From: Candidatus Desulfofervidus auxilii
Lineage (GTDB): Bacteria > Desulfobacterota > Desulfofervidia > Desulfofervidales > Desulfofervidaceae
Assembly (NCBI GenBank): GCA_030262725.1
Contig: JAJSZS010000003.1
Location: 1-64,000, forward strand
Length of the DNA stretch: 64,000 bases
Reading direction: 5' to 3'
In this document: one piece after another, positions 6,759 to 24,226 of the stretch
Position numbering within the stretch: position 1 is the first letter of the stretch
Layout: each line of letters starts with the position of its first letter
Made by a program: the position numbers and the translations under genes
Notes under the pieces: model-generated
The model's input: the letters and a program-made list of their open reading frames with translations, nothing else
Told to the model about the DNA's origin: nothing
Databases searched by the model: none

Positions 6759-6759
6759 A

Positions 6760-8472: not shown

Positions 8473-8968
8473 AAAAATATTTTGCTTTTTGTAAAAAATT
8501 ATCTAATTGCTGATAAATCTTCCTTTCTTTAGCAAGTGCGGCAATTTCTTCCCTGCTTCAACTAAAGCATTTTCTACCTTTTTAAATAAGCATCAATATC
8601 TTTAGAATATTTGCATTTTATCATTTTCATACTAATTATCTTTACCACATTTGTAGCCATCAAGTAAATGTTTAAAATTTCCAAAATGGTAATAATCAAT
8701 GCTCTTTTTCTGAATATCTCCAATAAAATTCTTAATTGACTGCTTAATCTACCCTCCCACAAATCCTAAAGTCAGATTTAGAGGCAAAAGACAAAAAGAA
8801 AAATAAAGGAAATTTGCGGGCTTATCCAAAATTTTCTACATCACAAATTCTTTTAGGAAAACAGAGATTTGAACAGATAATAAATTGTTTTGGGCTGTTT
8901 TAACATCCCATCCATGGGATTTTTGCCATCTATCCACTTATCTCCTTCTGTTTTAAGACATTCCTTTC

Positions 8969-9920
8969 TTATTTTATTCTTATTTCTATCCATATTTCTT
9001 CACAAAGAATTTCTTCTACAATTTCATCAATAATTTTTGGACTTCTCTCTTCAGGATAAATTAAAGCTTTTATAAGAGGTTTATTAAAAGTCTTTAAAAT
9101 TTCCCTACCAGTATTTGTTATACGATTTTTGTTTTGGTCTAATCTTTCCAATTCCCCTCTTGTAGTCATAGGTAAAAGATAGTTCCTTATAAAAATTTCT
9201 TCTGTCAGATCTTTTTCTTGAAATGCTTTAATAAAAATATCCTTAGCATAAAATCCTTGATTTTTGGGATCGTCTTTATATAATTCTAGTAAGTCATAAT
9301 ATTTTCTATCAAAATTCATCTTAAAAAATGGAATAAAACGGAATTGAAATTTTTTGGGATCTTCACTAGGGGGAGAAAGATATTTTGTATATTCTGAGGC
9401 GCCTAAAAATGTATAATAAATTCGTCCTACTCTTCCACTCAATAAAGCTACTTGTAACAAAGCAGCATTCATAATATTTGTACCACCAGTAATATTACAC
9501 CATATTTGTTTACCTTGCTTTTTACCTTCGCTAAATTTAAGAAATGCCGCTGCCATACGTTCAAAACAAATTTCATAATCATTTTCATTTACAGTGCAAA
9601 TAAAAAGAGTGCTTTTTTTTAGGGAGAATGTTTTTTAAACGGTTTTTTATAAATTTTTCTATAATTTCAATTAAAGTCTTATTCCTTAAAGTTGTACCTT
9701 GAACACTTCCATATTTATTGTCAACACACTCTTTAACAAGCTCTTCTCCTTTACTTACTGCCTGTGAAACAAAAATTACTACACTCTCAATCCTTTCATC
9801 AAAATCCTTTCCTACTAAATCAGAAAATCTCTCAGGATGTGCTTTAATATAAGCTAAAGCAGAAGTCACAGCTCCAGGTGCTTTACCTACTGTAGCAAAA
9901 TGGACTACACCCATAATCAC
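8969..9920 (-). pseudogene. CARF-wHTH (Csa3-like) protein, split by a +/-1 frameshift in a T8 homopolymer (9613-9620). The two ORFs are 9585-9920 and 8969-9556.
   Basis: N-terminal part shows a CARF strand-1 motif (VVHFATVGKAPGAVTSALAYI). C-terminal ORF shows the CARF signature (NITGGTNIM) and a wHTH-like tail (RITNTGREIL). The reading frame switches inside the A8 run on the coding strand. Confidence 0.6.
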
Positions 9921-10609
9921 TCACCTCCAAACCATTGATTGAAATATTCTGGCTTCCTCTCTAAAATACTTCGTAGCACTTTTCCTCTCTGGTTTTTAGA
10001 CAATTTGTGATAAAGTTTTTTACAAGCAATTTCAGCAATAAATTCCCAATCTTTAGCCTTATCTAATTCTTCCGTAAAAAAACGCTTTTCTTCTTCTATT
10101 TTCTCCTGACAATATTTTTTCATCATTAATTCTATCTCCATTCTATTTGCAGAAAATATGTGTGAACCTCTTCTTATGGGAATTTCTTTTGAGTCTATAT
10201 TTACCTCCGAATGTTGCAAGTTTCGTTTAAACATATAAGGAGGATTGTCTGAGTAAATTTCTATAACTATTATTTTTTTACCTTCAATCTCAAACTCTTC
10301 ACAATTTACCCTAGGCACAGGCTCTATCCATTCTGATAAAATTTGATAAATCATCTGACTTAATTGGTCTATTGAGATTTTAGAACAACCTACAATAGGA
10401 GACTCTTCAGAAGATGAGTGTTTTTCATCTTTTATACCAACGATTATATAACCTATTTCTTGGGACAAAGTATTTGCTATAGCAGCTACAAGCTTAGCAA
10501 ATTTTGCCTTATTGGGCTTATTACTTAAATCTAACCTTTCCTTAAAATCTATTTTTTCTATTTCTCTGTGTATCTTGATGATTTCTAAAAGTTCTTTTTT
10601 AGAAAGCAT
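9917..10609 (-). CDS. AlbA_2/Schlafen-like putative DNA-binding domain protein, embedded in the csm operon
   Basis: Pattern matches the AlbA_2 domain: E.EKIDFKERLDL ... AKLVAAIANTLSQEIGYIIVGIKDE ... EFEIEGKKIIVIEIYSDNPPYMFKR. Overlaps both neighbours by 1-4 nt. Confidence 0.5.
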   Translation of the reverse strand: MLSKKELLEIIKIHREIEKIDFKERLDLSNKPNKAKFAKLVAAIANTLSQEIGYIIVGIKDEKHSSSEESPIVGCSKISIDQLSQMIYQILSEWIEPVPRVNCEEFEIEGKKIIVIEIYSDNPPYMFKRNLQHSEVNIDSKEIPIRRGSHIFSANRMEIELMMKKYCQEKIEEEKRFFTEELDKAKDWEFIAEIACKKLYHKLSKNQRGKVLRSILERKPEYFNQWFGGE

Positions 10610-10610
10610 C

Positions 10611-11831
10611 TTAAATTTTTTCCAACTTTACCCATCCTAAAAGATTTTTAGGTTCTCCCATTGCATTTGTAATTACCCGCCTTGTTTTAGGAAACTCTTC
10701 TTTTGTCCGCCAGCGTCTGATGAAGGAAATAGCTTGTCTTAACATTTTATAAACTTGCGGACTGTCTTGTTTTAATTTCAAATCAACCGTTATACTTAAA
10801 AATCCCTGCCCTGCTCCTAATCGCAATAAGGGTGTGTCAGGTCTATTTTGCGTTTTTAAAAATTGTATTTTTTTAAAGATCTCAGGATAATTCCGAAAGT
10901 ATTTCTCTTCATGTTCTAAAAGAGTTTTAGCTTTATAAAAACAGATATTAAAAAGTCCATCTAAAGATAAGTATTTTTCAAATTTTTTATGCCCTAATTT
11001 TTCTAAAAATAAAGATTTCTTTTCTATGTTTAGAGTTGCAATAACTTCCACACCAGCAGATATAGCTTCAAGCCAGGTTTTAGTATAACATTTTGTAGCA
11101 AGACTTTGAGTAAGATAAATCTTAAGATAACTTAAAGGTAAAGGTTGAGTGTCAGCAATAGAGATAAATTTAAAAAAATCATATTTTGCATCAGATCTTC
11201 CATAACAAAGTATTTTAGATTCTAATTCTTTTGCTATTTGCTCCAGTTTTTTTCTTTTATTTTGTGGAGAAAGACCACTTTTATGGATTTTTTGATAATA
11301 TTCTTTTATTTTTATCTCAACTTCCTTAAAAAAACTTTTATCTTGCGTAAGAAAAAAGGAAAGAAAAGCCGTTCGTAAAGCTCCTTTTATTTCTGTTCCA
11401 GGTATGTACGGATTAAACGATGGAGTTTTAAGACAAGTTTTAAACCCATCCTGTGTAGGTTGTACTTCAAATGGAATTCTATAGAGGCAAAATTTTTTAA
11501 CAATAGAAGAAATATTTGTCTCTAATCTATTCTTAAGAAACCAATGGATATCAAGCCTTTGCTCTATTTCTCTTTTTTGTTTTTTTAATCTTCGCAAAAA
11601 TTCAAAGTTATCCCCTGCTGATTTTATCTTTTCTTCTATATCATCTATTTGAGCTAATAGGTTTTCCATCCAGTTTAAAAAGCTTTCTCTTTCTTTTTCA
11701 GAAAAATCTGCAAGCAACCTTTCTATATCAAGCACATAAACCCATCCTTTATCAATAATATAAGAAAGAGGTTTTAAGCTATTTCCATCTCCAATATGTA
11801 CAGGGGTAAGGGTGATAAGTTTTATACGCAT
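10611..11831 (-). CDS. csm5: Csm5 (Cas7-group RAMP)
   Basis: ITLTPVHIGDG N-terminus and an IPGTEIKGALRTAF G-rich loop. 406 aa. Position downstream of csm4. Confidence 0.8.
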   Translation of the reverse strand: MRIKLITLTPVHIGDGNSLKPLSYIIDKGWVYVLDIERLLADFSEKERESFLNWMENLLAQIDDIEEKIKSAGDNFEFLRRLKKQKREIEQRLDIHWFLKNRLETNISSIVKKFCLYRIPFEVQPTQDGFKTCLKTPSFNPYIPGTEIKGALRTAFLSFFLTQDKSFFKEVEIKIKEYYQKIHKSGLSPQNKRKKLEQIAKELESKILCYGRSDAKYDFFKFISIADTQPLPLSYLKIYLTQSLATKCYTKTWLEAISAGVEVIATLNIEKKSLFLEKLGHKKFEKYLSLDGLFNICFYKAKTLLEHEEKYFRNYPEIFKKIQFLKTQNRPDTPLLRLGAGQGFLSITVDLKLKQDSPQVYKMLRQAISFIRRWRTKEEFPKTRRVITNAMGEPKNLLGWVKLEKI

Positions 11832-12946
11832 TTTTTACTTACCTCTATTTTGGCAAATATAGGAAAGGCAATACCATCATAAAATGTATCATCTTGTCCG
11901 ATTTTTCCTATAGCTATGAGTTTTCCGTAACTTTCTTTTTTAGATAAAAATGTAAATAAAGATCCCTCTTCAAAGCAGCGTATTAGTTTTTTAAAAATCC
12001 CTCGGTTATCATAGGAATACAAGGTATCTAATTTTGCTCTCAAGTTTAAAATATTCCATAAAGAAAGAGATAAATCTATCTCATCTTTTACAGGCACATA
12101 TCTTGAAAGTGTTATAAAAACATTAGGATTTTGAACAGCAGGCGGCTCATATTTTTCTATTTGAAACCTGAAGTGTCCTTTTCCTGCAGTTCTCTCTCCA
12201 CCTATGCCTGTATCGGCTAAAAATCGTAAAAGAGAATGTATAAACTCTTTGTCTTTTGTTTTTATAAGAAACCACAAACCACAACAGGTATGAAAAAATA
12301 TCTCTTTTCTGAAAAATAAAAATCCTTCACCTGTAGAAAAGGAAATCCTGTCAATTTGATTTTTTTGAATATCTATTTCCTTAAAAAGGTATTTATCTAT
12401 TAGCTCGCCCTCAGGGTCTATTTGCCTCCTTTCTTCAGTAGTAATCAAACAAAAACCGTATTTTTCTATATCTGTTTTTATGCTCCCTCTCTTTTTTAAC
12501 CAAAAACATATTTTAGAATACCCAAAGTTACCCTTTATCATTCCCCAAAAGATGTTTTCTGAGACATATCTAATTCTTTTAAAATCTTTTAATCTTTCAC
12601 TGATTCTCAAAAAAGCCAAGTTAAAGTTTAAAACTTCATCCTGTGTGATAATTTCTCCTATTCTCTTCTGTTTTTCTATTAGTTTTTTTCTTTCTTCATA
12701 ATCTGGATCAGGCAGAAGTGGTTTAGGAAAAAAATGAATTTTCCTATCGCTATTAAATACGCAAGGAAAACTAGAACTTAAAATAAATGGAGGAGAGTTT
12801 TCTATAAAGGCCGAAAGGGTCTCTTTAAGTCTTTTTTTGCCGTAGAGATGGAAAATTGCCCAGCAAAAGGCACCAAATAAGGTATCAGAAGCAGGCCATG
12901 TAGTAAAAGAAGACTTTGGGTATAAATAAACTGCATAAGTTTGCAT
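11822..12946 (-). CDS. csm4: Csm4 (Cas5-group RAMP)
   Basis: N-terminal YPKSSFTTWPASDTLFGAFCWA signature. Confidence 0.85.
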   Translation of the reverse strand: MQTYAVYLYPKSSFTTWPASDTLFGAFCWAIFHLYGKKRLKETLSAFIENSPPFILSSSFPCVFNSDRKIHFFPKPLLPDPDYEERKKLIEKQKRIGEIITQDEVLNFNLAFLRISERLKDFKRIRYVSENIFWGMIKGNFGYSKICFWLKKRGSIKTDIEKYGFCLITTEERRQIDPEGELIDKYLFKEIDIQKNQIDRISFSTGEGFLFFRKEIFFHTCCGLWFLIKTKDKEFIHSLLRFLADTGIGGERTAGKGHFRFQIEKYEPPAVQNPNVFITLSRYVPVKDEIDLSLSLWNILNLRAKLDTLYSYDNRGIFKKLIRCFEEGSLFTFLSKKESYGKLIAIGKIGQDDTFYDGIAFPIFAKIEVSKKCV

Positions 12947-12951
12947 AGAAA

Positions 12952-13905
12952 TTACTCCACATTAGGAAAATTCTCAATAATTTGTTTAACAGTAATTATT
13001 TCCCTCTCTATCTCACCTTTAATTGGATGAACAAATTTTTCTTTTATAGGCTGTATCTTATTCAGACTTTCTACAATTTCATCCTTACCATCTGTTTTTC
13101 CTGTTTGGTAATATTCTTTAGAATGAAACTCTATAAAGTTTTTATTTTTTTTATTTTCAAATATAAATTTTATCTTCCCATATCCTCTGCTTCCAGATCC
13201 CCCAAGGCTGCTATCTTCTAGAAGAAGCATAGCAGTGAAAACATCCTTTAAAAGCTTTTTATCTTCATTACGATAAATGTCAAAAATTATTTCTAACTGA
13301 AACTCTGATCCTGCAGGCACTCTTTCCATTGGACGGGGAGTAGCTTGAGAGGTAATCCGATCAATGGTATTTTCTGTCTTAATCTCTGTATATGTTGCTT
13401 CACCTAAAAGTGTTTGCCATAAATTTATAGTGTCATCTACAGGAAAAGCATCTCTTATTGTGATTCTAGTAGGCTGTGCCCCTGATGCAGTTGCAGATGT
13501 TCCAAAAATTAAACAAATTTCGCATTCGTTTATTAATTCTTTTAATTTTTTTTCAATTTCTTGCTTTTTTTCTTCTTCTTTTTCCTTATTTTTTGCTTGT
13601 TGATATTTTCTAAGCTCTGCCTTCAGTTGCTTAATTTCAGGATGGTTTTCACAAGAATGGGCAGGAAATTTATTTTTATCATCTGAATATACTTTTCCCA
13701 ATTTCCACTCTAAAAGACACCGCATCTTTCCCTTTAGAGAAGAACCAGGAATGTATGGATAACCAGTTAAGGGGTCTTTTATAACCACATTATCAACTCC
13801 ACCTATTTCTATTCCTTCTTGAGTACCGCCGATATGAAGACCTGTTTCAAGTCTGACAATACCCTTAATTAAGTATTTTCCTAAAAAGCTAAGTTCTTGT
13901 TGCAT
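12952..13905 (-). CDS. csm3: Csm3 (Cas7 backbone subunit) with a zinc-finger insertion
   Basis: GLHIGG and a GSSLKGKMR G-rich loop. CxxH...CEIC insertion. 317 aa. Confidence 0.85.
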   Translation of the reverse strand: MQQELSFLGKYLIKGIVRLETGLHIGGTQEGIEIGGVDNVVIKDPLTGYPYIPGSSLKGKMRCLLEWKLGKVYSDDKNKFPAHSCENHPEIKQLKAELRKYQQAKNKEKEEEKKQEIEKKLKELINECEICLIFGTSATASGAQPTRITIRDAFPVDDTINLWQTLLGEATYTEIKTENTIDRITSQATPRPMERVPAGSEFQLEIIFDIYRNEDKKLLKDVFTAMLLLEDSSLGGSGSRGYGKIKFIFENKKNKNFIEFHSKEYYQTGKTDGKDEIVESLNKIQPIKEKFVHPIKGEIEREIITVKQIIENFPNVE

Positions 13906-13907
13906 TT

Positions 13908-14339
13908 TTACCCTCCACGAGGATAATGATATTTATGATATGCTATAATTGCTTCCAAGAAATCAGCTAAGCGAAGAAAATCTTCATTTGTTTGGAGAAT
14001 TTCCTTACGTAAGCATATTTTTAATACTTTCTGATAGAATTCTTTTGGTATAAGTCCTCTTCCTACTGAATATACTAAAACAGGCAAAAGCTTAGCTACC
14101 TGTGCAAAATCAAATGGATCATTAGGTTTACGGCTTATCTTTCTAGAAATTGCTTTAATTTCGTTGAAAAATTTCCGCAATTGAGTCATTTTTAACTCTT
14201 TTGCATTTTGGACAATTTTATCTGCAAGTCCACCTTCGTCACAAAATTCTTTGTAGTCTAATTCTTTAAAAGAATGAAGCTCGCGTAAACGTTCTTCTAT
14301 TTCTTTAAAACCCTTCTTTTTTTTAGATTCTTCTTTCAT
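13908..14339 (-). CDS. csm2: Csm2 (Cas11 small subunit)
   Basis: 143-aa helical protein with the TQLRKFFNEIKAI motif. Position between cas10 and csm3. Confidence 0.75.
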   Translation of the reverse strand: MKEESKKKKGFKEIEERLRELHSFKELDYKEFCDEGGLADKIVQNAKELKMTQLRKFFNEIKAISRKISRKPNDPFDFAQVAKLLPVLVYSVGRGLIPKEFYQKVLKICLRKEILQTNEDFLRLADFLEAIIAYHKYHYPRGG

Positions 14340-14340
14340 A

Positions 14341-16848
14341 CTAACTCCCCCTTATCTTCAAGCTTACATAAGAAGTAATTATTCTCAAACTATTATTAAA
14401 AAACTTAGATATTTTCTCAACCAATTCAGCCTTAACCTCTTCATCTTTTATTCTTCTTACCACATTATAAAAAAAATATGGCACCCACATTAAAGTGGTT
14501 TCTTTTTCTAAATTATGCAGAAAATATATAAATCCACGCGGCATTTTTTCTTCTTTTATCCAAGAAATCATCTTTTCAGCAAAATTAAACACTTCTTTAA
14601 ATTCATTCCACTTTATAGTTCTATTAAATAAAGTTAATCTGTTTTTCTCATTGAACCCTTTAACTTCACAAGTTTTAGATCTTTCTAATGCTTGACCTGC
14701 TAAATGCACAAATCTCTGAATAGGAAAAAGAGGTTTTACAAAACATATCCCACCTGAAAGATGAAAGTTTTCGTTAAAAGAAGTATAAGCTGTAAAATCT
14801 TGTTGAATCTTGTAACTTAGCTCAATAATAGCATCCCAAGGGCCTATGATTAACAAATCATCTCCACCTGCATAAAGGATATAATAAAGACTTTCAAAAG
14901 CACCTTGCCAGTTTTTATTTTCTTTTACCCATTTTTCTGTTAGCTCTCTACAAATTACATTTAGCCATCCACCAAAAAACAAGTCTAAAATTGTGCTTAA
15001 AGTGGAAATCCTTGAAAAGGACATTTCTTCTTTTTTTAACCCTAACGCAAATATTGCTCCCAAATAATCAACATCCATTTTTAATACACCTAAATATTTT
15101 GCTCCTTTGTTTAACTCAGCTATTTCTTCAAAACTTAAAATATCTCCCTTTTTTACTTCTTCATCTTTTACATTTATTCCTTCCTTCAATACTTTGGGCA
15201 CAGCATTTGCGATAAACTTAAACCCAAAAGAGGTAGATTTACCCTTCTTTTTGAAGTCTAATAGATTTTCAGGGATAAAATCACTTTCAGGATTTAGTAC
15301 ATAAATAACTGCTTTTTGCTCATTATCTATACATGAACAAAATGCCTTTATCTCCTCCTCAGAAATCAAATACACATAAACACCTAATTTTTTAAAAGCA
15401 ACCTTTACGAGATGTTTCAAATTTTCCTTAAAAATTTCTTTAATTAGAATAGGTTTTCCATAAAGAAAAACGATATATTTTGTTTTAGGCAACTTATTTC
15501 CAATTTCCTCTTGTTTTTTACATTGAATACAACATATTTCATTATCTTTTATTTGAGAAACCAAACACACTCTACACACATTTAAAGGAACACTTTTTTC
15601 GGGTGTAAAAAAGTCACTGGTTTTTAATATCTCTAAAAATTTCTTATATTTTTGTTTTGCCAATGTATCTTCAAGTTTCTGATAAACAAAAGAAAGATCC
15701 AGAAAATCTTTTGGACATATTTCCACAGCTGCTATTTGAAGACTTAACTCTCCATTAAACTCCTCAAGAAGCCACTTATTTAGTTGAGACAATAAATTGG
15801 GAATTTTCTCTTCTGCGGTAATAGGCAAAAGCAAATCAAATCTTCCTCCACCACAAAAAAGAATATTGGCAACAGGAAGTTCAATTTCCCTTATAATCCA
15901 ATCAGCAATAACCTCTGTAAGAAGGGTTACAAAAAATGACCTTCCTCTAAGCCTTTTTGCTGTTTTTCTAGTATCTTTCTCAGGTTCAGGGCGGGTAATA
16001 GAATAAATAAATTTTTGGATACCTGCTATATCTCCTCTTAATAACAAAAATAAAGGTTTTTTAGTTATATCTAATGAATTAAACCTCCTTTCAAAATCTT
16101 CCTCTTTATAACTTTTAAGAATTTTCACTAATTCTTTCATTTCCTGTAAAGATAGGTCATTCTTAGAAAGCTTATTTAAACAAGCGGCAATTGCACATGT
16201 GATTTTGGAATGGTCAAACAAAGAAATATCAGGAATAGTTTGAGCGTCTTTTTCCCATGGAGTAGCTGAAGGAACAAATAAAACAAACTTTTTTAAAAGG
16301 TAATATAAAGTCACAAAATCACAATCTTGATATTTACTAAGTCGCTTAACACTCCCGAAAAATTCTTCCCAAGTAGTTTTATAAGCATCTTCTTCTACTT
16401 TTTCTTTCTCTGTAGGAAATAAAATTTCTTTTTTAATCTGCAAAGGATAGGGCTGATAATATTTTTCAGTAGGTGGGTTGGCATGAAGTTTAATTTTTGA
16501 AGTAATAGCAACTAAAGCAGCCTGTTTAGAAGAAATCCTTTCTCTCACTTCCTGCCTTCTCTCAATTGATGAAAGCTTATCTGCTATTTGCAAAATTAAC
16601 TCATCTTTAGTAGTAGGAATTTCATGGTGGTTTCTTACTAACTTCTTTATTTCTATCCATACTGTTTCTTCCCAGAAACTTTTAAGAGCTTTAATAAAAT
16701 GCTCTCCTACCTCCGCATGCGTTCCTAAAAACTCTTTACTTGCCCTTTGGGACAATTTTCCAATATCATGTAAAAGACTTGCTAATAAAATAATCCTTTC
16801 ATTTTTATCCATTTTCATTTTCCTTCCTTCAAACACCCACACGTCCAA
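14341..16848 (-). CDS. cas10: Cas10/Csm1 with intact HD nuclease and GGDD cyclase motifs
   Basis: N-terminal HD (LLHDIGK ... NHHE), a treble-clef zinc finger (CRVCLVSQIKDNEICCIQC), and a palm GGDD (YAGGDDLLIIG). The real start is probably an internal Met (MKMDKNE near 16812-16818). Confidence 0.9.
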   Translation of the reverse strand: MDVWVFEGRKMKMDKNERIILLASLLHDIGKLSQRASKEFLGTHAEVGEHFIKALKSFWEETVWIEIKKLVRNHHEIPTTKDELILQIADKLSSIERRQEVRERISSKQAALVAITSKIKLHANPPTEKYYQPYPLQIKKEILFPTEKEKVEEDAYKTTWEEFFGSVKRLSKYQDCDFVTLYYLLKKFVLFVPSATPWEKDAQTIPDISLFDHSKITCAIAACLNKLSKNDLSLQEMKELVKILKSYKEEDFERRFNSLDITKKPLFLLLRGDIAGIQKFIYSITRPEPEKDTRKTAKRLRGRSFFVTLLTEVIADWIIREIELPVANILFCGGGRFDLLLPITAEEKIPNLLSQLNKWLLEEFNGELSLQIAAVEICPKDFLDLSFVYQKLEDTLAKQKYKKFLEILKTSDFFTPEKSVPLNVCRVCLVSQIKDNEICCIQCKKQEEIGNKLPKTKYIVFLYGKPILIKEIFKENLKHLVKVAFKKLGVYVYLISEEEIKAFCSCIDNEQKAVIYVLNPESDFIPENLLDFKKKGKSTSFGFKFIANAVPKVLKEGINVKDEEVKKGDILSFEEIAELNKGAKYLGVLKMDVDYLGAIFALGLKKEEMSFSRISTLSTILDLFFGGWLNVICRELTEKWVKENKNWQGAFESLYYILYAGGDDLLIIGPWDAIIELSYKIQQDFTAYTSFNENFHLSGGICFVKPLFPIQRFVHLAGQALERSKTCEVKGFNEKNRLTLFNRTIKWNEFKEVFNFAEKMISWIKEEKMPRGFIYFLHNLEKETTLMWVPYFFYNVVRRIKDEEVKAELVEKISKFFNNSLRIITSYVSLKIRGS

Positions 16849-17630
16849 ATGCCTTTATTTGTAATTCTAATTCCGCCCCTTTCAACCTCCACTAATCCAT
16901 AATGCTCAAGGCGGTTAATTTCGTCTGCGTATTTGTTTATTAATTCTTCAAATTCCTTATTGCTTTTTGTTTTTTTGTCAGAAAGCATCTCTAAAACCTT
17001 TAATTCATTTCCCCTTGGTAGGTAAAAAAGTGGAGGAAATTTGATTATGTCTTTAAATTCTTCATGCATATAATAAACCTCACAACCTGTAAGAAAACCA
17101 GCAAGGGCACTAGTAATTACATGTGCCTTAAATCCACCTGTAGGATTAAAGACAACTTTATATCCTTCTTTTTTCTTTTTACTAGCAAGATAAATGAAAC
17201 GATCAAGAATGTCAGTTAGTCCTTTAATAAATTCATCTGCTGCTGTTTCTAAAGGTCTATCAAAATAGCCAGGAAATTGAGGTGAGCTATACATTGCGCA
17301 ATTTAACCCTTCTTTAAAATACTTTTCAATTGTTCTTAAGGCAATTTCATTAGAGGCAGTTTGTGTACCAGATAAATAGATTTCACAAGTTGCAGGATTG
17401 ATACTGTGCTTTTCACAATATTTTAAAAAAGAATTCAATTCAGCAGATCTTTCTCTAGGTTTTTCAGAAAGAAAATCATAAATCTTTTTAAAAAAAGATG
17501 AATCATTTATAACTTCTAACCATATTTCATCACCCATTCCTGCATTTTTTACCTTTGAATCATCTATGTTTTTTTGATAATTTGCAATAAGACTATTGCC
17601 TACAGTAATTAAATGAAACTCCTTTTTCAT
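16815..17630 (-). CDS. CARF-wHTH protein (Csa3-like putative cOA-responsive regulator)
   Basis: CARF motifs HLITVGNSLIANY and FNPTGGFKAHVITSALAGF. C-terminal wHTH-like segment (LKVLEMLSD...GLVEVERGGIRITNKG). No R-X4-6-H HEPN motif found. Confidence 0.7.
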   Translation of the reverse strand: MKKEFHLITVGNSLIANYQKNIDDSKVKNAGMGDEIWLEVINDSSFFKKIYDFLSEKPRERSAELNSFLKYCEKHSINPATCEIYLSGTQTASNEIALRTIEKYFKEGLNCAMYSSPQFPGYFDRPLETAADEFIKGLTDILDRFIYLASKKKKEGYKVVFNPTGGFKAHVITSALAGFLTGCEVYYMHEEFKDIIKFPPLFYLPRGNELKVLEMLSDKKTKSNKEFEELINKYADEINRLEHYGLVEVERGGIRITNKGIWTCGCLKEGK

Positions 17631-17955
17631 CCATCCTCAATTTACCTAAGTGCCGTTAAAATGTCAAGAAAATATTTAAAAGATTTTTTCTTGCCTTAAA
17701 ATAAAAATTATGCTATCAATTTGAAAAAATTAAGCTCTTTTGAAAACTGAATAGGATCTCCAATTTTGCGGAAACCTTCCCTATTGTTCTAAGTGCCCAA
17801 TTTTTTAAAGTGGTTCCCGAAAAAGAATTTTTCCCTTTTTAAGGGAGATTATTAAAATTACCTGCTTAAGAAAAGTTAATTTTGGGCAATCAATAAAGAG
17901 GTTTCCGAAAATGGGTTTCTAACTACCCAATATTTCAAACGCAAAAAACGGTGCG
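17631..17955 (+). promoter_or_regulatory. CRISPR leader / divergent promoter region containing a repeated GGTTTCCG motif and repeat-like fragments
   Basis: AT-rich 325-bp gap between the CARF gene and repeat 1. GCGGAAACC (17768-17776), GGTTCCCGAAAAAG (17812-17825), GGTTTCCGAAAA (17900-17911). GGGTTTCTAAC (17913-17923) is the reverse complement of the repeat 5' end. Confidence 0.5.
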
Positions 17956-18630
17956 GTTAGAAACCTTGACCCGATTTGAGGGGATTGCGACTAGGAATGC
18001 CGTCATTATCGTCATCGGTGGGCGGCTCACAAGTGTTAGAAACCTTGACCCGATTTGAGGGGATTGCGACATAATCGCATCCAGAACCACATCACCCGTA
18101 TCAAACAACTCTAAAAGTTAGAAACCTTGACCCGATTTGAGGGGATTGCGACCAATTTGATAGCGCCAGTATGGCGTTTTATCTAAAACATAATCAAAGT
18201 TAGAAACCTTGACCCGATTTGAGGGGATTGCGACTTTTTTCTTATTTCTTTTTCTTTCTCTTCCATTCTTTTTTCAGGTTAGAAACCTTGACCCGATTTG
18301 AGGGGATTGCGACAATGTCCTTTGCCCATGTTTAAAAACAATGAAATAAGTTAGAAACCTTGACCCGATTTGAGGGGATTGCGACAGAAAGAAAAGTAGG
18401 AAGCTTAACATAAAGAATCTCTACCCATTCTGTTAGAAACCTTGACCCGATTTGAGGGGATTGCGACTGCAATAAGAATCTGTGTAGTATCATCAACAAA
18501 CAAATTACCATGTTAGAAACCTTGACCCGATTTGAGGGGATTGCGATAGACAATTCGTTTGAACGTTTCAACGTTTACACGTTTGAATGTTTTCATTGAA
18601 AACCTTGACCCGATTTGAGGGATTGGAAAA
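17956..18630 (+). CRISPR. CRISPR array, 8 full repeats plus 1 degenerate terminal repeat. Repeat GTTAGAAACCTTGACCCGATTTGAGGGGATTGCGAC (36 bp).
   Basis: Exact repeats start at 17956, 18035, 18117, 18199, 18278, 18350, 18432 and 18512. The copy at 18512 has a final C>T change. The degenerate copy lies at about 18595-18630. Spacers are 43, 46, 46, 43, 36, 46, 44 and 47 bp. Degeneration at the right end implies the leader is on the left and transcription is on the plus strand. Confidence 0.95.
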
Positions 18631-18831: not shown

Positions 18832-19935
18832 TTACAATTTCTGATAGCAATTAAGAGCCTGTTTAATATCTTCTTTAAGACCCGGGATAAATTTGTAAGA
18901 AGCAAGATTATCTACATCTATCCATTTTATTACATCAAATTCTTCACTTTCTTCTTTAAGACAACTTTCATCAGTGGTAACACACAGAAAGCGTACACCC
19001 GGTATTGCGGGTCTACCGTTAGAAGAAAGTATAACATAAGAAGTAAAAGGTTTGAGCACTTTTACTTTTATCCCGAATTCTTCCCACATCTGTCTTCTCA
19101 CTGCTTCCTCAAAACTTTCTCCTATATGAACCTGCCCTCCACCACATTCCCAGAATAAGGGATAAATTTCCCTATCTCCTTTCCTTTTACCAGCTAGTAC
19201 AAAAAATTTATTCTGTTCTTTTTTGAAAACTATTCCAGCCACATGAACCTCTATTTTATGTTGGTATTCTTCTCTGCGGCGAGGATGTAACAAAGGAGGA
19301 TGGACATCACTATTATAAAGCACCGTAACAGTAGGCAAACCTTTAACCACAATTTGGTCTTTTTCAAAACCCATGTTTTTTAAATCTTTCTCTAAAAAAG
19401 GCATAGCTTCAATGTCAATAACTATTCCTTTAGGCCTAGCTGCATCGCAAAGGCGTGAAGCAAGATTTATAGGGTTACCAAAAAAATCATATTCAGAAGG
19501 GGTTATAAAAGCTTTTAAAATACCAAAAGAAATACCTATACCTGAATCTAACTTTTCTGCTTTACCTCCTGCTTCAGTTATGGGAATAATAACTTTTTCT
19601 TTAAATTCTTTTCTCCAATATGAAACTATTTTTGTGATTATATTTCTTATTTCATTTTTATGATTTTCTTTTAGTAAAGGAACAAATTTTTCTACTTCTT
19701 CATTTGAAGAAACTTTTCCTTTTATCTCTACAATACTTTTTATAAATAGCCCACCATCACCCAACCTTTTATAAACAAAGGGCTTATTACTACTTCCCAT
19801 TTCTTTCGCTTTTTCACTAAGAAATTTATAAAGAAGTTCAATTAAAACAGGCGCATAAGCCTCATTTTGTTTAGCCCAATTAGAAAAACCCCTTATATCA
19901 AAATTAACAACAATCCCTAAAACCCACATATTCAT
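18832..19935 (-). CDS. Class III nucleotidyl cyclase (CHD) fused to a C-terminal NUDIX hydrolase domain
   Basis: Cyclase motifs: FDIRGFS (metal Asp), KRLGDGG (second Asp), GNPINLASRLCDAA. Nudix box GGQVHIGESFEEAVRRQMWEEFGI, matching GX5EX7REUXEEXGU with RQ in place of RE. Confidence 0.8.
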   Translation of the reverse strand: MNMWVLGIVVNFDIRGFSNWAKQNEAYAPVLIELLYKFLSEKAKEMGSSNKPFVYKRLGDGGLFIKSIVEIKGKVSSNEEVEKFVPLLKENHKNEIRNIITKIVSYWRKEFKEKVIIPITEAGGKAEKLDSGIGISFGILKAFITPSEYDFFGNPINLASRLCDAARPKGIVIDIEAMPFLEKDLKNMGFEKDQIVVKGLPTVTVLYNSDVHPPLLHPRRREEYQHKIEVHVAGIVFKKEQNKFFVLAGKRKGDREIYPLFWECGGGQVHIGESFEEAVRRQMWEEFGIKVKVLKPFTSYVILSSNGRPAIPGVRFLCVTTDESCLKEESEEFDVIKWIDVDNLASYKFIPGLKEDIKQALNCYQKL

Positions 19936-20065
19936 CCCTCTATTTTTCTATTAACCCATTTATAACCTAATCTAGTGGAGAAAATATGTCAAGATAATTT
20001 TTTAAAAATAATCTGCTTCAAACCCAAATTTTAGGAGAAATGTTTTCATCAAGGAGGAATTTCAC

Positions 20066-20292
20066 TTATGCTACCTTTTCTAATTCACCCACTTCTTCTC
20101 TGGCAAGCATGGCAGCATATTTTACACAAGCCTGAATATCTTCTTTGGTTAAATCAGGATAATCATCAAGAATCTCATCAATGGTCGCTCCACTGCTAAA
20201 AGGTCAAGAATCAAATAAACTGGAATCCTTGTACCTTTTATACAAGGTGTACCATGTAATATTTCCTGGTTTACTACTATACGGTCAATCAT
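20066..20292 (-). pseudogene. DUF433-family small protein with a 1-nt frameshift near 20196
   Basis: Minus-strand translation gives MIDRIVVNQEILHGTPCIKGTRIPVYLILDLLAVE, then in another frame ATIDEILDDYPDLTKEDIQACVKYAAMLAREEVGELEKV. Both parts match the DUF433 consensus. Confidence 0.55.
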
Positions 20293-20394
20293 ATTTTTGA
20301 GCTCCTGACACTCATTCTTACAAAACATTTATTATAAAATCACCTAACTCACAATACTGCTCTTCATTTTTAACAATTCTATAAAAGGTAAAAA

Positions 20395-20557: not shown

Positions 20558-20677
20558 ATTTTATCAAACGTGGGAAGGAAATGTGCCTCTTAAATTTACG
20601 TCCCTTACATGGACTGCTTCAAACCTAAGACTTTTTAGATGTAATATATCTTCCTTTACCACTATGCGATCAATCAT
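20558..20677 (-). pseudogene. 5' fragment of a second DUF433 gene (first 13 codons, MIDRIVVKEDILH) plus a duplicated upstream segment
   Basis: Identical N-terminal peptide. About 65 bp of upstream sequence (20666-20730) is ~75% identical to 20281-20345. The reading frame diverges after codon 13 and stops after 39 codons. Confidence 0.4.
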
Positions 20678-21791: not shown

Positions 21792-22904
21792 ATGGGGAAA
21801 AACAACGTATTTTTCTTAGAGGTAATTGAGTGGTTTGATCCTACAGGCAAAGAAATTGTTCACCGGATTCCAGAAGAAGGATCAGGGGAAATTAAGCTTG
21901 GCGCTCAGTTAATTGTGCGAGACAATCAAGTTGCTGTCTTTTACTATAATGGGCGTGCTTATGACGCCATCGGTCCTGGGCGTCATACTTTATCCACAAA
22001 GAATATCCCTATCTTAACTAAAGTGTTAAGCCTGCCCTGGGGGTTTACAAGTCCCTTTCGGGCAGAAGTTTATTTTGTCAATATGAAAGTTTTTACTAAC
22101 CTGAAATGGGGAACAAGAGAACCTGTTGCTTTCAAAGACACAGAACTTGGGCTTGTGCGTCTTCGTACCTTTGGTATATTCAACATTCAGATATCCCAAC
22201 CAGTCTTGTTTATCAATAGTTTAGTAGGCACTCAAGGAGTCTACACTACCGAGGAAATAGAAAATTATCTCAGTCGAGTAATTGTTTCTCGCTTTAATGA
22301 CTATTTAGGTGAAAAACTAGATACAATTCTAAATTTACCAAGCAGGTATGACGAATTGTCACAAGGATTGCAGGAAAGATTAAAAGAGGATTTCTCACGT
22401 TATGGAATCCGCCTAGCTGGGCTTTATATCAATTCTATTACCCCACCTCCTGAAGTACAACAAGCCATTGATGACAGAGGACGTTTGGCTGTATTGGGAG
22501 ATTTGGATAGATTTATAAAAATGAAAGCAGGAATGGCAATGGAAGCCGCTGCTGAAGCTGGAGGAACCGCAGAAGGAGGTCTTGGGCTAGGGTTGGGATT
22601 AATGCTTCCGGGTTTTTTGATGGGAGCAATACAGGGTAAAACACAGACCACTTCACCTAATTGCCCTGAATGTCATCAGCCTGTACCTCAGGATGCTAGG
22701 TTTTGCCCTTTTTGTGGACATCAGTTAGTTATTATTCATAAATGTCAACATTGTGGTAAAAATTTACCTCCTAAAGCTGTTTTCTGCCCCCGTTGTGGTG
22801 CTCCTGTTGCTTCAAAACCTCATTCCATTAAGTGTCCTCATTGTGGAGCTGAAAATTTACCAGAAGCCATCTTTTGTAATTTCTGTGGTGAAAAATTAAA
22901 GTAA
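21792..22904 (+). CDS. SPFH/Band-7-like domain protein (PF13421-like, YdjI-like) with C-terminal tandem zinc ribbons
   Basis: N-terminus [60 protein letters not shown]. Gly-rich linker. Four C..C...C..C zinc-ribbon units at the C-terminus. Confidence 0.6.
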
Positions 22905-24226
22905 TGCAAACATGGCATATTCAAACACGCTGTCCTCAATGTGGAGCTCCGGTCTCTCTTACTGAAACGCAACGAGTGCTTCATTGTGAGTATTGTAAGA
23001 CAAGACTTTATTTACTACCTAAGGGTTTTCAGTGTTATCTTTTACCACCAAAAAAGCATAAAGATGAAATTCTTTTTATTCCCTTCTGGCGCATCAAAGG
23101 AATGAGCTTTGTTTGTAAAATGCCTTCTAAAATAGAAGCCAAAGTAATTGACAAAACCACTATTGCTCTGGATTTCCCTCTAGGTTTTACTTCTTTAGGT
23201 ATACGTCCTCAGGCAATAAACCTCGAATTTGCAGATGTAAAAAGAGGAATTTTTTTATCACCTCAGCTTAGTTTTAAAGAAGCATTACAAAAAATAAAAA
23301 CACGCTCAAAAAGTAATGCATTTCGTCTTTCTCATAGCAAAATGTCTTGTAATTATAAACAAAACATTCTAGCAATTTTGGGGAATGAAGAACATCCTTC
23401 TGTTACAGTTATTTTTCACTCTTTTATTGGTGAGGTATGGAGTCTTATTTATTTCCCTATTTTTATTGAGGAAAGCAGACAAAAAATTATTTTAAAAGAT
23501 GGACTGTCTAGGCAAAATATTGGGGATTTAACCTTAAAAGAATGGGAACAATTCAAAAAAAAGAAGGTTACTAGATTGCCTGCATGGCAATTTCTGCCCC
23601 TTATTTGTCCCCATTGTGGCTGGGACATCCCTTGCGATAAAGAAGCGTGGGCAGTATTCTGCCCCAATTGTAACCGAGGTTGGGGAGTTTTAAAAAACAA
23701 ATTTGTTCCTTTGCACTATAAGGTGGCTAAAACTGAAGGAAAAGATATATTTTACCTACCTTTTTGGCAAATTCGTGCTACTGCTTCTGCTCTTTCTTTA
23801 CATACCTATGCAGACTTGATTCGTTTTGCAAATTTGTCGAAAGTGATAAAAAGTAAACACCGAAAAATTCCTTTTTATTTTTATATCCCTGCCTTTAAAC
23901 TTAATCCTCATCAATTTTTAAAAATAGCCAAAACTCTTACACTAAACCAACCAGACTATGTTTATTTTTCTCAACCTGTTCCTAATGCCCATCCTGTAAT
24001 TTTACCACCAACAGAGGCATTAGAAGCGATAAAATTGGTAATGGCAGATATAGCTGTACCAAAGCGATATTTTTTCCCTCGACTGAAAGAAATAGAACCT
24101 AAAGTTACTCAAATTATCTTACTCTTTTTGCCTTTTGTTAAAAAAGGTATTGAATTAATCTTAGCTAATAAAGATATTAATTTGGCCATTCCTGTAAATG
24201 CTTTAAAATGGGGAAGTTTTTTATAA
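22904..24226 (+). CDS. Zinc-ribbon-containing protein of unknown function (YdjG-like partner of the SPFH protein?)
   Basis: CPQCGAPV...CEYCKTRLY and CPHCGWDIPCDKEAWAVFCPNCNRGW zinc ribbons. Start codon overlaps the upstream stop (ATGA-type coupling). Confidence 0.4.
   Translation: MQTWHIQTRCPQCGAPVSLTETQRVLHCEYCKTRLYLLPKGFQCYLLPPKKHKDEILFIPFWRIKGMSFVCKMPSKIEAKVIDKTTIALDFPLGFTSLGIRPQAINLEFADVKRGIFLSPQLSFKEALQKIKTRSKSNAFRLSHSKMSCNYKQNILAILGNEEHPSVTVIFHSFIGEVWSLIYFPIFIEESRQKIILKDGLSRQNIGDLTLKEWEQFKKKKVTRLPAWQFLPLICPHCGWDIPCDKEAWAVFCPNCNRGWGVLKNKFVPLHYKVAKTEGKDIFYLPFWQIRATASALSLHTYADLIRFANLSKVIKSKHRKIPFYFYIPAFKLNPHQFLKIAKTLTLNQPDYVYFSQPVPNAHPVILPPTEALEAIKLVMADIAVPKRYFFPRLKEIEPKVTQIILLFLPFVKKGIELILANKDINLAIPVNALKWGSFL

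What the first reader, a model, noticed from the sequence alone, without database searches (positions are those of the whole stretch)
18832..19935. Class III nucleotidyl cyclase-NUDIX fusion encoded directly beside the CRISPR array, preceded by a DUF433 small gene
A complete cyclase homology domain with both metal-binding Asp residues is fused to a NUDIX domain with a near-canonical Nudix box. It sits between the array trailer and the TA modules, which is typical defense-island context. Class III cyclase domains are the signalling enzymes of Pycsar (cCMP/cUMP) systems. As far as I recall, NUDIX fusions have been noted among such cyclases. No cNMP-binding effector is adjacent, so this would be an orphan or unconventional signalling module. 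The NUDIX half could alternatively hydrolyse a nucleotide signal or NTP pool.
Basis: partly seen in the sequence, partly recalled or inferred. Interest (0 to 1): 0.7.

Follow-up and report, generated by a model that had tools for sequence, protein, structure and literature searches.

The report
Orphan cyclase–NUDIX gene beside CRISPR array
This is an intact gene for a rare two-domain enzyme, a cAMP-type nucleotide cyclase fused to an atypical NUDIX nucleotide-binding domain, which travels as a single-gene cassette between bacterial defence islands and here landed next to a type III CRISPR array, apparently by chance.

Summary

- All six catalytic residues of homodimeric adenylate cyclases are present, including the Lys/Asp adenine-specifying pair.
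- The protein matches no Pycsar PycC model, and no cNMP receptor gene is nearby.
- The Nudix box reads RQxxEE rather than REUXEE. In 93 wider-family members the first Glu is never present (His in 76), while the cyclase residues are nearly invariant.
- Only six homologue clusters (~50% identity) exist among 5.8 billion proteins. Those with readable flanks lie in defence, TA or plasmid-like contexts with different neighbours, and none beside CRISPR.
- Distant relatives include one next to a PycTM gene and cyclase-NUDIX-viperin triple fusions.

Best reading: an autonomous, mobile cyclase whose NUDIX-like domain senses or processes a nucleotide. The mechanism is inferred, not shown.

The parts
18832..19935 (-). 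Cyclase-NUDIX gene: 367 codons plus stop, with the likely true start at the ATG at 19929.
   Evidence: ORF list. Full-length homologues at E 1e-104 to 1e-109 with the same architecture. Sequence and ribosome-binding site read.
19315..19935 (-). Class III cyclase homology domain, residues 1 to about 207. The catalytic residues are D13, K56, D60, D150, N157 and R161.
19252..19314 (-). Inter-domain linker, residues about 208-228. It contains the conserved R221-E222.
   Evidence: The only long low-confidence segment (residues 214-228, pLDDT <50) in the full-length model. Alignment.
18835..19251 (-). MutT/NudI-like NUDIX-fold domain, residues 229-367.
   Evidence: Pfam PF00293 E 4.6e-11. PADLOC PDC-S07 E 3.7e-13. 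Family profile against PDB: MutT 4v14 at 3.2e-9 and NudI 6dt3 at 6.6e-9.
19069..19137 (-). Atypical Nudix box, residues 267-289: GQVHIGESFEEAVRRQMWEEFGI. It reads RQ where the consensus has RE.
   Evidence: Read directly from the translation. Q282 is invariant in the 7 close homologues. Across 93 family members this position is H 76, Q 8, I 4, L 3, Y 2 and never E.
19974..20009 (-). Promoter-like stretch upstream of the gene: an AT-rich tract plus TCTTGACAT. Its function is inferred only.
   Evidence: It is 75% identical over 36 nt to the stretch upstream of the CARF-wHTH gene. TCTTGACAT occurs only at these two places in the window. Alignment. The consensus scan did not call a full promoter here.
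17956..18630 (+). Neighbouring CRISPR array: 9 repeats of GTTAGAAACCTTGACCCGATTTGAGGGGATTGCGAC, with the last repeat degenerate. It is context only and not judged part of the module.
   Evidence: Repeat families. Independent k-mer scan.
20066..20328 (-). Frameshifted DUF433 antitoxin pseudogene. It is context that marks a decayed TA locus at the upstream edge of the cassette.
   Evidence: Pfam DUF433 E 1.3e-11 covering only profile positions 1-29 of 56. The C-terminus continues in another frame.
20018..20065 (-). A 15-codon stub (VKFLLDENISPKIWV*) that resembles the start of a DUF5615-type toxin. It is truncated just upstream of the cyclase-NUDIX promoter region.
   Evidence: Translation. The assignment to DUF5615 rests on my own knowledge of that family's N-terminus and was not tested with a profile.

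Best explanation
**What it is.** The gene encodes a self-contained two-domain enzyme. It moves horizontally as a single-gene cassette among defence islands and plasmid-like elements of thermophilic Thermodesulfobacteriota. In this genome (Ca. Desulfofervidus auxilii or a close relative) it sits in a decayed DUF433/DUF5615 TA locus. Its place next to the type III-A CRISPR trailer is coincidental.

**How it most likely works.**
1. The N-terminal domain is a class III cyclase. It carries the full catalytic hexad of homodimeric adenylate cyclases, so it most likely dimerises and makes cAMP (or another 3',5'-cNMP) plus pyrophosphate from ATP or another NTP.
2. The C-terminal domain has a MutT/NudI-like NUDIX fold. 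Its phosphate-binding arginines and most box residues are conserved, but the first REUXEE glutamate is Gln here and is never Glu anywhere in the family.
3. I therefore think the NUDIX domain is mainly a nucleotide-binding sensor or regulator, perhaps with slow or non-canonical hydrolysis. It would gate the cyclase in response to an NTP or NDP-X type ligand that changes during infection or stress.
4. The cyclic nucleotide would then act on a receptor encoded elsewhere in the genome.

**Shown.** Gene integrity, both folds, residue conservation, rarity, and the variable defence or mobile contexts.

**Inferred.** Dimerisation, the cAMP product, the sensor role of the NUDIX domain, a trans-encoded receptor, and any antiviral function.
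For: **Folds and residues.**
- The CHD profile finds CyaB as its best PDB sequence match (E 2.9e-5).
- In 93 full-length family members the hexad is nearly invariant: D13 91/93, K56 93/93, D60 92/93, D150 88 Asp plus 5 Glu, N157 91/93, R161 90 Arg plus 3 Lys.
- In the HMMER alignment D150 falls on the position of CyaB's adenine-specifying Thr.
- The NUDIX domain is real: Pfam 4.6e-11, MutT and NudI as best PDB matches.
- The first Glu of REUXEE is H 76, Q 8, I 4, L 3, Y 2 and never E. The second Glu is E in only 10 of 93. R251, R255 and G267 are 93/93, and C318 is 92/93. This is strong constraint on a pocket without the canonical catalytic set.

**Autonomy and mobility.**
- Only 6 homologue clusters exist in 5.8 billion proteins, and only one 50%-identity representative in 1.84 billion.
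- Neighbours differ in every lineage:
  - HEC-02 ATPase plus NERD, with a PglX fragment and a PD-T4-4-like gene.
  - An Eco57I-type restriction-modification gene plus HEC-02.
  - A plasmid-like element with a Rep-like gene and iterons.
  - HipA, NTP_transf_8 and an AAA_15/21 ATPase.
  - CRISPR and TA genes here.
- HEC-02 defends as a two-gene system without a cyclase (bioRxiv 10.1101/2024.01.29.577857).
- Several metagenomic copies are frameshifted.
- A strain with 99% identical ProS is in the database but has no close copy of this gene.

**Signalling link.**
- A distant member lies 259 bp from a divergent PycTM gene.
- About 10 or more of the 73 nearest CHD relatives hit PycC models, and others are fused to viperin or TIR domains.
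Against: - No receptor or effector gene is linked in the window or in any close homologue locus.
- The sensor role of the NUDIX domain is an argument from residue patterns only. The window's clade keeps E273, R281, E285 and E286, so it could still hydrolyse.
- A Lys at the same position is also used by a clade D uridylate cyclase (PMC11224242), so the cAMP prediction is not secure.
- The full-length model has pTM 0.59 and a disordered linker, so it says nothing about coupling between the domains.
- Contexts of the wider family are mixed. Some are ordinary chromosomal or signalling neighbourhoods.
- The number of independent contexts for the close clade is small, about 5.
Confidence: 0.4

Rival explanations
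1. It is a nucleotide-depleting abortive-infection effector. Both domains are catalytic and both consume the NTP pool: the cyclase converts NTP to cNMP plus PPi, and the NUDIX domain converts (d)NTP to (d)NMP plus PPi. This starves phage replication, and no downstream receptor is needed.
For: - The gene is a single-gene cassette with no linked effector in any close locus.
- The NUDIX domain is closest to the NTP pyrophosphohydrolases MutT and NudI.
- It matches the stand-alone defence candidate PDC-S07 (E 3.7e-13).
- The window's clade keeps E273, R281, E285 and E286.
- Frameshifted copies are frequent, which fits a costly or toxic gene.
Against: - The first REUXEE Glu is never present in 93 members, and the second is lost in 83 of 93. 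That argues against efficient canonical hydrolysis as the conserved function.
- No trigger or sensor is identified.
- A class III cyclase is, to my knowledge, an unusual tool for bulk ATP depletion.
Confidence: 0.22
2. It is a true Pycsar-type pyrimidine cyclase, a PycC with a NUDIX appendage. Its cNMP-binding effector has been lost or is encoded elsewhere in the genome.
For: - A distant family member (Thermocatellispora) lies next to a Pfam PycTM gene.
- Some of the nearest CHD relatives hit PADLOC PycC models, best E 9.3e-11.
- Family members hit PycC weakly, at 2e-4 to 6e-3.
- The gene sits in a defence-island setting.
Against: - The protein itself hits no PycC model at E<=1.
- No PycC structure is found by its profile.
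- The base-specifying residues are Lys/Asp as in adenylate cyclases. They are not the Y/D/R, F/R/Q or F/K/F sets reported for PycC (PMC11224242).
- No PycTM or CNBD gene was found in the window or in close loci. That offline search has low sensitivity.
Confidence: 0.1
3. It is a housekeeping or environmental cAMP-signalling enzyme with a nucleotide-sensing NUDIX domain. It is unrelated to defence, and its position in the island is incidental.
For: - The catalytic residues are those of adenylate cyclases.
- Some wider-family members lie in ordinary neighbourhoods, such as next to another cyclase and chemotaxis genes or among metabolic genes in a methanogen-like contig.
- Source databases name members 'class 3 adenylate cyclase'.
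Against: - The close clade is extremely rare and patchy.
- It is absent from a near-identical strain.
- It is repeatedly pseudogenised.
- All of about 5 informative contexts are defence, TA or plasmid-like.
- Relatives are fused to viperin and TIR domains.
Confidence: 0.15
4. It is an accessory gene of the adjacent type III-A CRISPR-Cas system. For example, the NUDIX half could detoxify or trim nucleotides produced during the cyclic-oligoadenylate response, as with the reported CAAD-Nudix pairing, or the gene could be co-regulated with the CARF-wHTH gene.
For: - The gene lies 200 bp from the array trailer.
- The type III-A locus has an HD domain and a GGDD Cas10 motif, but no recognised cOA-activated effector was found.
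- A CAAD-Nudix partnership is reported for type III systems (PMC12993439).
- TCTTGACAT and a 36-nt stretch at 75% identity occur only upstream of this gene and of the CARF-wHTH gene.
Against: - None of the other 31 fetched loci carrying a family member has the window's repeat or a CRISPR array; the only array-like hit was the plasmid iterons of L010.
- No cas genes appear among the called neighbours of relatives.
- The protein has no CARF or SAVED domain.
- There is no deaminase in the window's cas locus.
- The gene converges on the array, and decayed TA genes lie between it and the rest of the island.
- The 9-mer coincidence reaches 2 or more matches in 5 of 100 shuffles.
- A survey of type III accessory genes does not mention Nudix or this cyclase type (PMC6546367).
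Confidence: 0.06

Closest known systems
Bacterial class III adenylate cyclases (P. aeruginosa CyaB, PDB 3r5g; Spirulina CyaC, PDB 1wc1)
   Same: - Best sequence-profile match in the PDB.
- Same six catalytic residues, including the Lys plus Asp/Thr adenine-specifying position.
   Different: - Only 16-23% identity.
- The protein falls just below the Pfam gathering score.
- The CHD is at the extreme N-terminus and is followed by a NUDIX domain. To my knowledge the usual sensors (GAF, PAS, HAMP and the like) are N-terminal.
- It sits in a mobile or defence context.
Pycsar cyclases (PycC; PDB 7r65, 8jsz, 8jsf)
   Same: - A class III-type cyclase found in defence islands.
- Some of the nearest CHD relatives hit PycC models.
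- One distant cyclase-NUDIX member neighbours a PycTM gene.
   Different: - The query has no PycC model hit.
- It carries the purine-type Lys/Asp pair rather than the reported pyrimidine determinants (PMC11224242).
- It has no adjacent cNMP-binding effector.
MutT / NudI NTP pyrophosphohydrolases and the PADLOC candidate PDC-S07 (stand-alone NUDIX)
   Same: - NUDIX fold and most of the box.
- Best PDB matches are MutT (3.2e-9) and NudI (6.6e-9).
- PDC-S07 matches at E 3.7e-13.
   Different: - The first Glu of REUXEE is Gln here, His in most of the family, and never Glu. From my own knowledge, this residue is the general base in E. coli MutT.
- The domain is fused to a cyclase rather than free-standing.
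NrtR-type regulators, where a non-catalytic Nudix domain senses ADP-ribose and controls a fused output domain
   Same: The proposed logic is the same: a Nudix fold with a degenerate box acts as a ligand sensor for a fused output domain.
   Different: - The output here is a cyclase, not a DNA-binding domain.
- The comparison rests on my own knowledge of NrtR. No sequence or structure comparison with NrtR was run.
CAAD (CARF-adenosine deaminase) plus Nudix hydrolase pairs of type III CRISPR systems
   Same: A NUDIX protein is encoded next to a type III system (PMC12993439).
   Different: - There is no deaminase and no CARF effector partner here.
- The NUDIX domain is fused to a cyclase.
- The association with CRISPR does not recur in relatives.

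Membership tests
Class III nucleotidyl cyclase (CHD, Pfam PF00211) | CHD fold | tested here: met
   [not shown]
Class III nucleotidyl cyclase (CHD, Pfam PF00211) | Score above the Pfam gathering threshold | tested here: not met
   20.4 bits against 21.9, covering only residues 126-199. Even so, 50 of the 74 sequences in alignment A3 (this protein plus its 73 nearest relatives) hit PF00211 at E<=1e-3.
Class III nucleotidyl cyclase (CHD, Pfam PF00211) | Two metal-binding Asp residues plus the transition-state Asn and Arg | tested here: met
   D13, D60, N157 and R161 are present. They are conserved in 91, 92, 91 and 90 (plus 3 Lys) of 93 members.
Class III nucleotidyl cyclase (CHD, Pfam PF00211) | Head-to-tail dimer and cyclase activity | not testable with these tools
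   No multimer prediction or assay was available.
Adenylate-specific class III cyclases | Lys plus Asp/Thr base-specifying pair | tested here: met
   K56 is 93/93. D150 is 88 Asp plus 5 Glu of 93. D150 aligns with the CyaB Thr position in the HMMER alignment. That this pair defines adenine specificity comes from established knowledge of the family.
Pycsar (PycC cyclase plus cNMP-binding effector) | Match to PycC profiles | tested here: not met
   The query has no PycC hit at E<=1. Five other family members hit weakly or not at all, at 2e-4 to 6e-3.
Pycsar (PycC cyclase plus cNMP-binding effector) | Adjacent effector gene (PycTM or PycTIR with a cNMP-binding domain) | tested here: not met
   - Pfam on the flanking genes found none.
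- phmmer and HMM searches with four CNBD sequences and one PycTM found none in the window or close loci. Those searches have low sensitivity.
- The feature is met only in the distant locus L025.
Pycsar (PycC cyclase plus cNMP-binding effector) | cCMP or cUMP as product | not testable with these tools
   The residues point to a purine substrate, but this is inference.
NUDIX hydrolase superfamily (Pfam PF00293) | Profile match above threshold | tested here: met
   43.3 bits against 21.1, E 4.6e-11.
NUDIX hydrolase superfamily (Pfam PF00293) | Complete Nudix box GX5EX7REUXEEXGU | tested here: not met
   The box reads RQMWEE rather than REUXEE. Across 93 members the first Glu is never present, and the second is present in only 10.
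NUDIX hydrolase superfamily (Pfam PF00293) | Pyrophosphohydrolase activity | not testable with these tools
   This needs an enzyme assay.
Type III CRISPR accessory genes | Recurrent co-location with type III cas genes or arrays in relatives | tested here: not met
   - None of the 31 other loci has the repeat or a CRISPR array; the one array-like hit (L010) proved to be plasmid iterons.
- No cas domains appear among the called neighbours.
Type III CRISPR accessory genes | cOA-sensing domain (CARF or SAVED) | tested here: not met
   Only CHD and NUDIX domains were found by Pfam, PADLOC and NCBIfam.

The most novel reading that the evidence does not exclude
Cyclase-NUDIX proteins form an undescribed family of one-protein nucleotide-signalling immune sensors. 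A catalytically disabled Nudix fold detects an infection-linked nucleotide and switches on a fused class III cyclase. The signal is read by different outputs in different genomes: an unlinked receptor here, PycTM in Thermocatellispora, and a fused viperin in the triple-fusion members.
Probability: 0.25. Interest if true: 0.75.

Novelty: new variant of a known kind. Interest (0 to 1): 0.5.

Why it matters
**For cyclase-based immunity.** How the cyclases of Pycsar-like systems detect infection is, to my knowledge, unknown. If the reading is right, this family offers a cyclase with a built-in candidate sensor domain. Its ligand pocket is strongly conserved (R251, R255, E263, Q268, E273, R281, E286, C318). 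That makes the question testable with one small soluble protein.

**For Nudix biology.** It would add a natural example of a Nudix fold turned from hydrolase into sensor.

**For neighbouring fields.** The cyclase-NUDIX-viperin fusions would tie cNMP signalling to chain-terminator defence.

**For annotation.** The result warns against reading every gene beside a type III array as a CRISPR accessory. It also warns against calling every defence-island class III cyclase a Pycsar cyclase.

Tried and rejected
1. **HEC-02 as partner.** I first took the ATPase plus 175-aa genes downstream of three homologues for a conserved three-gene operon. They are HEC-02A/B, a two-gene system that defends without a cyclase. 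They are absent from the window, L010, L015 and L001. I rejected them as obligate partners.
2. **CRISPR linkage.** I searched all fetched loci for the window's repeat and for any array. The only hit was in L010, and it turned out to be plasmid iterons.
4. **cNMP receptor search.** phmmer and an HMM built from four CNBD sequences written from memory, plus the L025 PycTM, found nothing in any ORF of the window or loci.
5. **Phage or plasmid carriage.**
   - No hit among 50,697 phage records.
   - One distant hit on a Methylobacterium megaplasmid.
   - One IMG/VR contig, where the gene is flanked by ORFs that by eye resemble TnpB-type transposon proteins; this was not profile-tested.
6. **Literature.**
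   - No searched paper describes a cyclase-NUDIX fusion.
- The original Pycsar paper and Burroughs et al. 2015 are not held.
7. **Inter-domain geometry.** The full-length model (pTM 0.59, disordered linker) is too uncertain to use.
8. **Shared promoter motif.** The similarity with the CARF-wHTH gene is noted, but it is too weak (5 of 100 shuffles) to build on.
Full report
**1. What is in the sequence**

Window 18832..19935 on the minus strand is an uninterrupted 367-codon ORF. Homologues start at MWVLG, which corresponds to Met3. The real start is therefore probably the ATG at 19929, six bases after a GAGGG ribosome-binding site.

Pfam finds a NUDIX domain at residues 233-348 (E 4.6e-11, 43.3 bits against a cut-off of 21.1). 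It finds only a partial, sub-threshold Guanylate_cyc match at residues 126-199 (E 4.2e-4, 20.4 bits against 21.9). PADLOC matches the NUDIX half to the untested single-gene candidate PDC-S07 (E 3.7e-13). It matches no PycC model. All NCBIfam matches are below their cut-offs, and the best are generic Nudix, NudI and MutT models.

**2. The cyclase domain is real**

The AlphaFold2 model of residues 1-215 is confident (pLDDT 91.1, pTM 0.90).
- GGDEF domains, Cas10 and the mCpol minimal polymerase score only about 9-11.
- Foldseek on the full-length model gives the same answer (CyaC E 6e-10).
- A profile of the domain finds CyaB as its best PDB sequence match (E 2.9e-5) and no PycC.

The sequence carries D13 (FDIRGFS), K56 and D60 (KRLGDGG), D150 (YDFFG), and N157 and R161 (NLASR). 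By established knowledge of class III cyclases these are the two metal ligands, the Lys/Asp adenine-specifying pair, and the transition-state Asn/Arg. D150 falls on the position of CyaB's adenine-specifying Thr in the HMMER alignment.

The determinants reported for pyrimidine cyclases are different: Y50/D94/R97, F100/R142/Q144 and F60/K104/F109 (PMC11224242). One of those sets includes a Lys, so the cAMP prediction is likely but not certain.

**3. The NUDIX domain is atypical**

The family profile is closest to MutT (3.2e-9) and NudI (6.6e-9) among solved structures. The box reads G267-x5-E273-x7-R281-Q282-M-W-E285-E286-F-G288-I, so the first Glu of REUXEE is Gln. This Gln is invariant in the seven close sequences.

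I collected 93 full-length cyclase-NUDIX proteins and tabulated the key columns.

| Position | Residues in 93 members |
|---|---|
| First REUXEE Glu (Q282) | H 76, Q 8, I 4, L 3, Y 2; never E |
| Second REUXEE Glu (E285) | E in only 10 |
| Third REUXEE Glu (E286) | E in 90 |
| R251, R255, G267 | 93 of 93 each |
| C318 | 92 of 93 |
| D13 | 91 |
| K56 | 93 |
| D60 | 92 |
| D150 | 88 Asp plus 5 Glu |
| N157 | 91 |
| R161 | 90 Arg plus 3 Lys |

The conserved enzyme of this family is therefore the cyclase. The NUDIX fold keeps a strongly constrained pocket but not the canonical catalytic set. From my own knowledge, the equivalent Glu is the general base of E. coli MutT, and Glu-to-Gln changes there abolish turnover while keeping binding. 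This is the basis for reading the domain as a sensor or regulator, or as a non-canonical hydrolase. It is an inference.

**4. Surroundings in the window**

The host is Ca. Desulfofervidus auxilii or a very close relative. Its ProS is 99% identical to a protein from a MAG of that species.

Downstream of the gene lies a CRISPR array at 17956-18630. It has nine 36-nt repeats ending in ATTGCGAC, and the last repeat is degenerate. The array is transcribed towards the gene's 3' end.

Beyond the array is a type III-A operon on the minus strand:
- a CARF-wHTH protein resembling ring nucleases, scoring far below the NCBIfam equivalog cut-off (59.4 against 600 bits);
- Cas10/Csm1, with an HD domain and a GGDD motif;
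- Csm2, Csm3, Csm4 and Csm5;
- a Schlafen/AlbA_2 protein, a 111-aa unknown and a 195-aa protein with a weak Card1-type CARF match;
- a CRISPR-associated primase-polymerase, Cas1 and two Cas2 genes;
- then SbcCD.

No deaminase and no recognised cOA-activated effector were found.

Upstream of the cyclase-NUDIX gene the 'DUF433 small gene' is a frameshifted pseudogene (20066-20328). A 15-codon toxin stub follows it (20018-20065). A second deletion remnant lies at 20561-20677. An intact PIN-Phd pair comes next. The cassette thus sits in decayed TA DNA.

**5. Relatives and their contexts**

The close family is very rare. There are six clusters at 48-51% identity among 5.8 billion proteins. There is a single 50%-identity representative among 1.84 billion. 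All share the fusion.

Their neighbours differ:
- HEC-02 (ABC ATPase plus NERD nuclease) with a PglX fragment and a PD-T4-4-like ATPase.
- An Eco57I-type restriction-modification gene plus HEC-02 in contigs linked to Desulfonauticus submarinus.
- A plasmid-like element with Rep-like and DnaB-like genes and five iterons, followed by an unknown 796-aa protein.
- HipA, NTP_transf_8 and an AAA_15/21 ATPase pair in a Desulfofervidaceae MAG, where the copy carries two frameshifts.

Further metagenomic copies are also split by frameshifts. HEC-02 is a validated two-gene system that needs no cyclase (bioRxiv 10.1101/2024.01.29.577857). No relative lies beside a CRISPR array. No phage record encodes the family.

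The database holds a strain with 99% identical ProS, yet nothing closer than 51% to this protein. The gene therefore appears strain-specific. The caveat is that the window's own genome is evidently not in the collection.

**6. The wider family**

A profile search recovers 89 clusters from spirochaetes, Armatimonadota, Cloacimonadota, actinomycetes, alphaproteobacteria and archaea-like contigs. They are often named 'class 3 adenylate cyclase' or 'NUDIX' by their sources. Their contexts are mixed:
- In Thermocatellispora the gene lies 259 bp from a divergent Pfam PycTM gene and is followed by a second NUDIX gene.
- In a Methylobacterium megaplasmid it lies by an IS1595 element.
- In one lineage it follows another cyclase near chemotaxis genes.
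- In a methanogen-like contig it is next to a HicB gene.
- In an IMG/VR contig it lies between two ORFs (301 and 353 aa) that by eye resemble TnpB-type transposon proteins. This was not tested with a profile.

Four members are cyclase-NUDIX-radical-SAM proteins. P0139 hits PADLOC viperin models at 3.8e-15.

Alignment A3 holds this protein plus its 73 nearest cyclase-domain relatives. Among them, about 10 or more hit PycC models (best 9.3e-11), one carries a TIR domain and one matches PDC-S66. The four nearest non-NUDIX relatives that I tested hit nothing in PADLOC.

**7. Interpretation**

The identity is secure: an intact, rare, horizontally mobile cyclase-NUDIX enzyme riding in defence islands.

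For mechanism, I favour a nucleotide-gated cyclase. The NUDIX-like domain would bind, and at most slowly process, an NTP or NDP-X ligand and control cAMP/cNMP synthesis by the CHD dimer. The signal would be read by a receptor encoded elsewhere. The arguments are:
- the contrast between invariant cyclase residues and a never-intact Nudix box;
- the general habit of class III cyclases of being controlled by fused sensor domains (established knowledge);
- the precedent of non-catalytic Nudix sensors in NrtR regulators (my knowledge, not tested here);
- the PycTM and viperin associations of distant members.

The main rival is a receptor-free NTP-depleting effector. It fits the single-gene architecture and the comparatively well-preserved box of this clade. 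True Pycsar membership, a housekeeping role and CRISPR accessory status are each weakened by specific tests set out under the rival explanations and membership tests.

**8. Novelty and score**

I found no description of this fusion in the searchable literature. Two key papers could not be read.

It is best classed as a new variant of a known kind, cyclase-based nucleotide signalling in defence islands, and not as a member of Pycsar. Interest is moderate. Domain shuffling in defence islands is common, and function is unproven. Even so, the family-wide pattern of intact cyclase with disabled Nudix box, together with the viperin and PycTM links, gives a concrete and testable route to the question of how defence cyclases sense infection.

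Noticed in passing
window 5207-8472 (-): The adaptation module has a CRISPR-associated primase-polymerase (NCBIfam PrimPol type A1, E 1e-90, with TPR repeats) next to Cas1. Two tandem Cas2 genes follow it.
   Followed up: partly
window 8969-17630 (-): The type III-A operon (Csm1-5, with an HD domain and a GGDD Cas10 motif) has no recognisable cOA-activated effector. It has only a ring-nuclease-like CARF-wHTH first gene, a Schlafen/AlbA_2 protein, a 111-aa unknown and a 195-aa protein with a weak partial Card1-CARF match. About 500 bp (8473-8968) carries no ORF of 90 aa or more.
   Followed up: partly
window 20018-20328 and 20561-20677 (-): These are decayed TA genes. One is a frameshifted DUF433, followed by a 15-codon toxin stub. 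The other is a 38-codon ORF that joins a DUF433-like N-terminus (MIDRIVVKEDILH) to what looks like a toxin C-terminus.
   Followed up: partly
window 17649-17684 and 19974-20009 (-): A 36-nt AT-rich stretch with TCTTGACAT, 75% identical between the two copies, lies upstream of both the CARF-wHTH gene and the cyclase-NUDIX gene. The 9-mer occurs nowhere else in the 64 kb. It could be a shared promoter or operator, or chance (5 of 100 shuffles).
   Followed up: partly
window 21792-24226 (+): An overlapping gene pair. The first is an SPFH/Band-7 protein with three C-terminal zinc ribbons (370 aa). The second is a 440-aa protein with zinc-ribbon motifs and no family match. It may be another conflict-related cassette at the edge of the island.
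   Followed up: no
L025 7278-9555 (Thermocatellispora tengchongensis): A distant cyclase-NUDIX gene is flanked by a divergent PycTM gene, 259 bp away, and by a second stand-alone NUDIX gene. This is the only locus seen with a Pycsar-type effector.
   Followed up: partly
proteins P0139, P0026, P0077, P0227: These are triple fusions, cyclase-NUDIX-radical SAM, of 630-652 aa. The C-terminal part of P0139 hits PADLOC viperin (pVip) models at E 3.8e-15.
   Followed up: partly
L010 3293-4364 and 6809-9199: The closest homologue lies on a plasmid-like element. A Rep-like gene is followed by five iterons (GGACATACTTTAATAAG). Directly downstream of the cyclase-NUDIX gene is a 796-aa protein with no Pfam or PADLOC match.
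   Followed up: partly
L001 10001-11156; L012; L013; L014: Several copies of the close clade are split by frameshifts. The Desulfofervidaceae MAG copy has two, one of them in an A-run. The gene is either often decaying or prone to assembly errors.
   Followed up: partly
L002 4860-7952: The same metagenomic island that carries a homologue plus HEC-02 also holds a 205-aa fragment of a PglX/type IIG methyltransferase. It also holds a PD-T4-4_A-like ATPase (E 5e-51) with a 162-aa partner.
   Followed up: no
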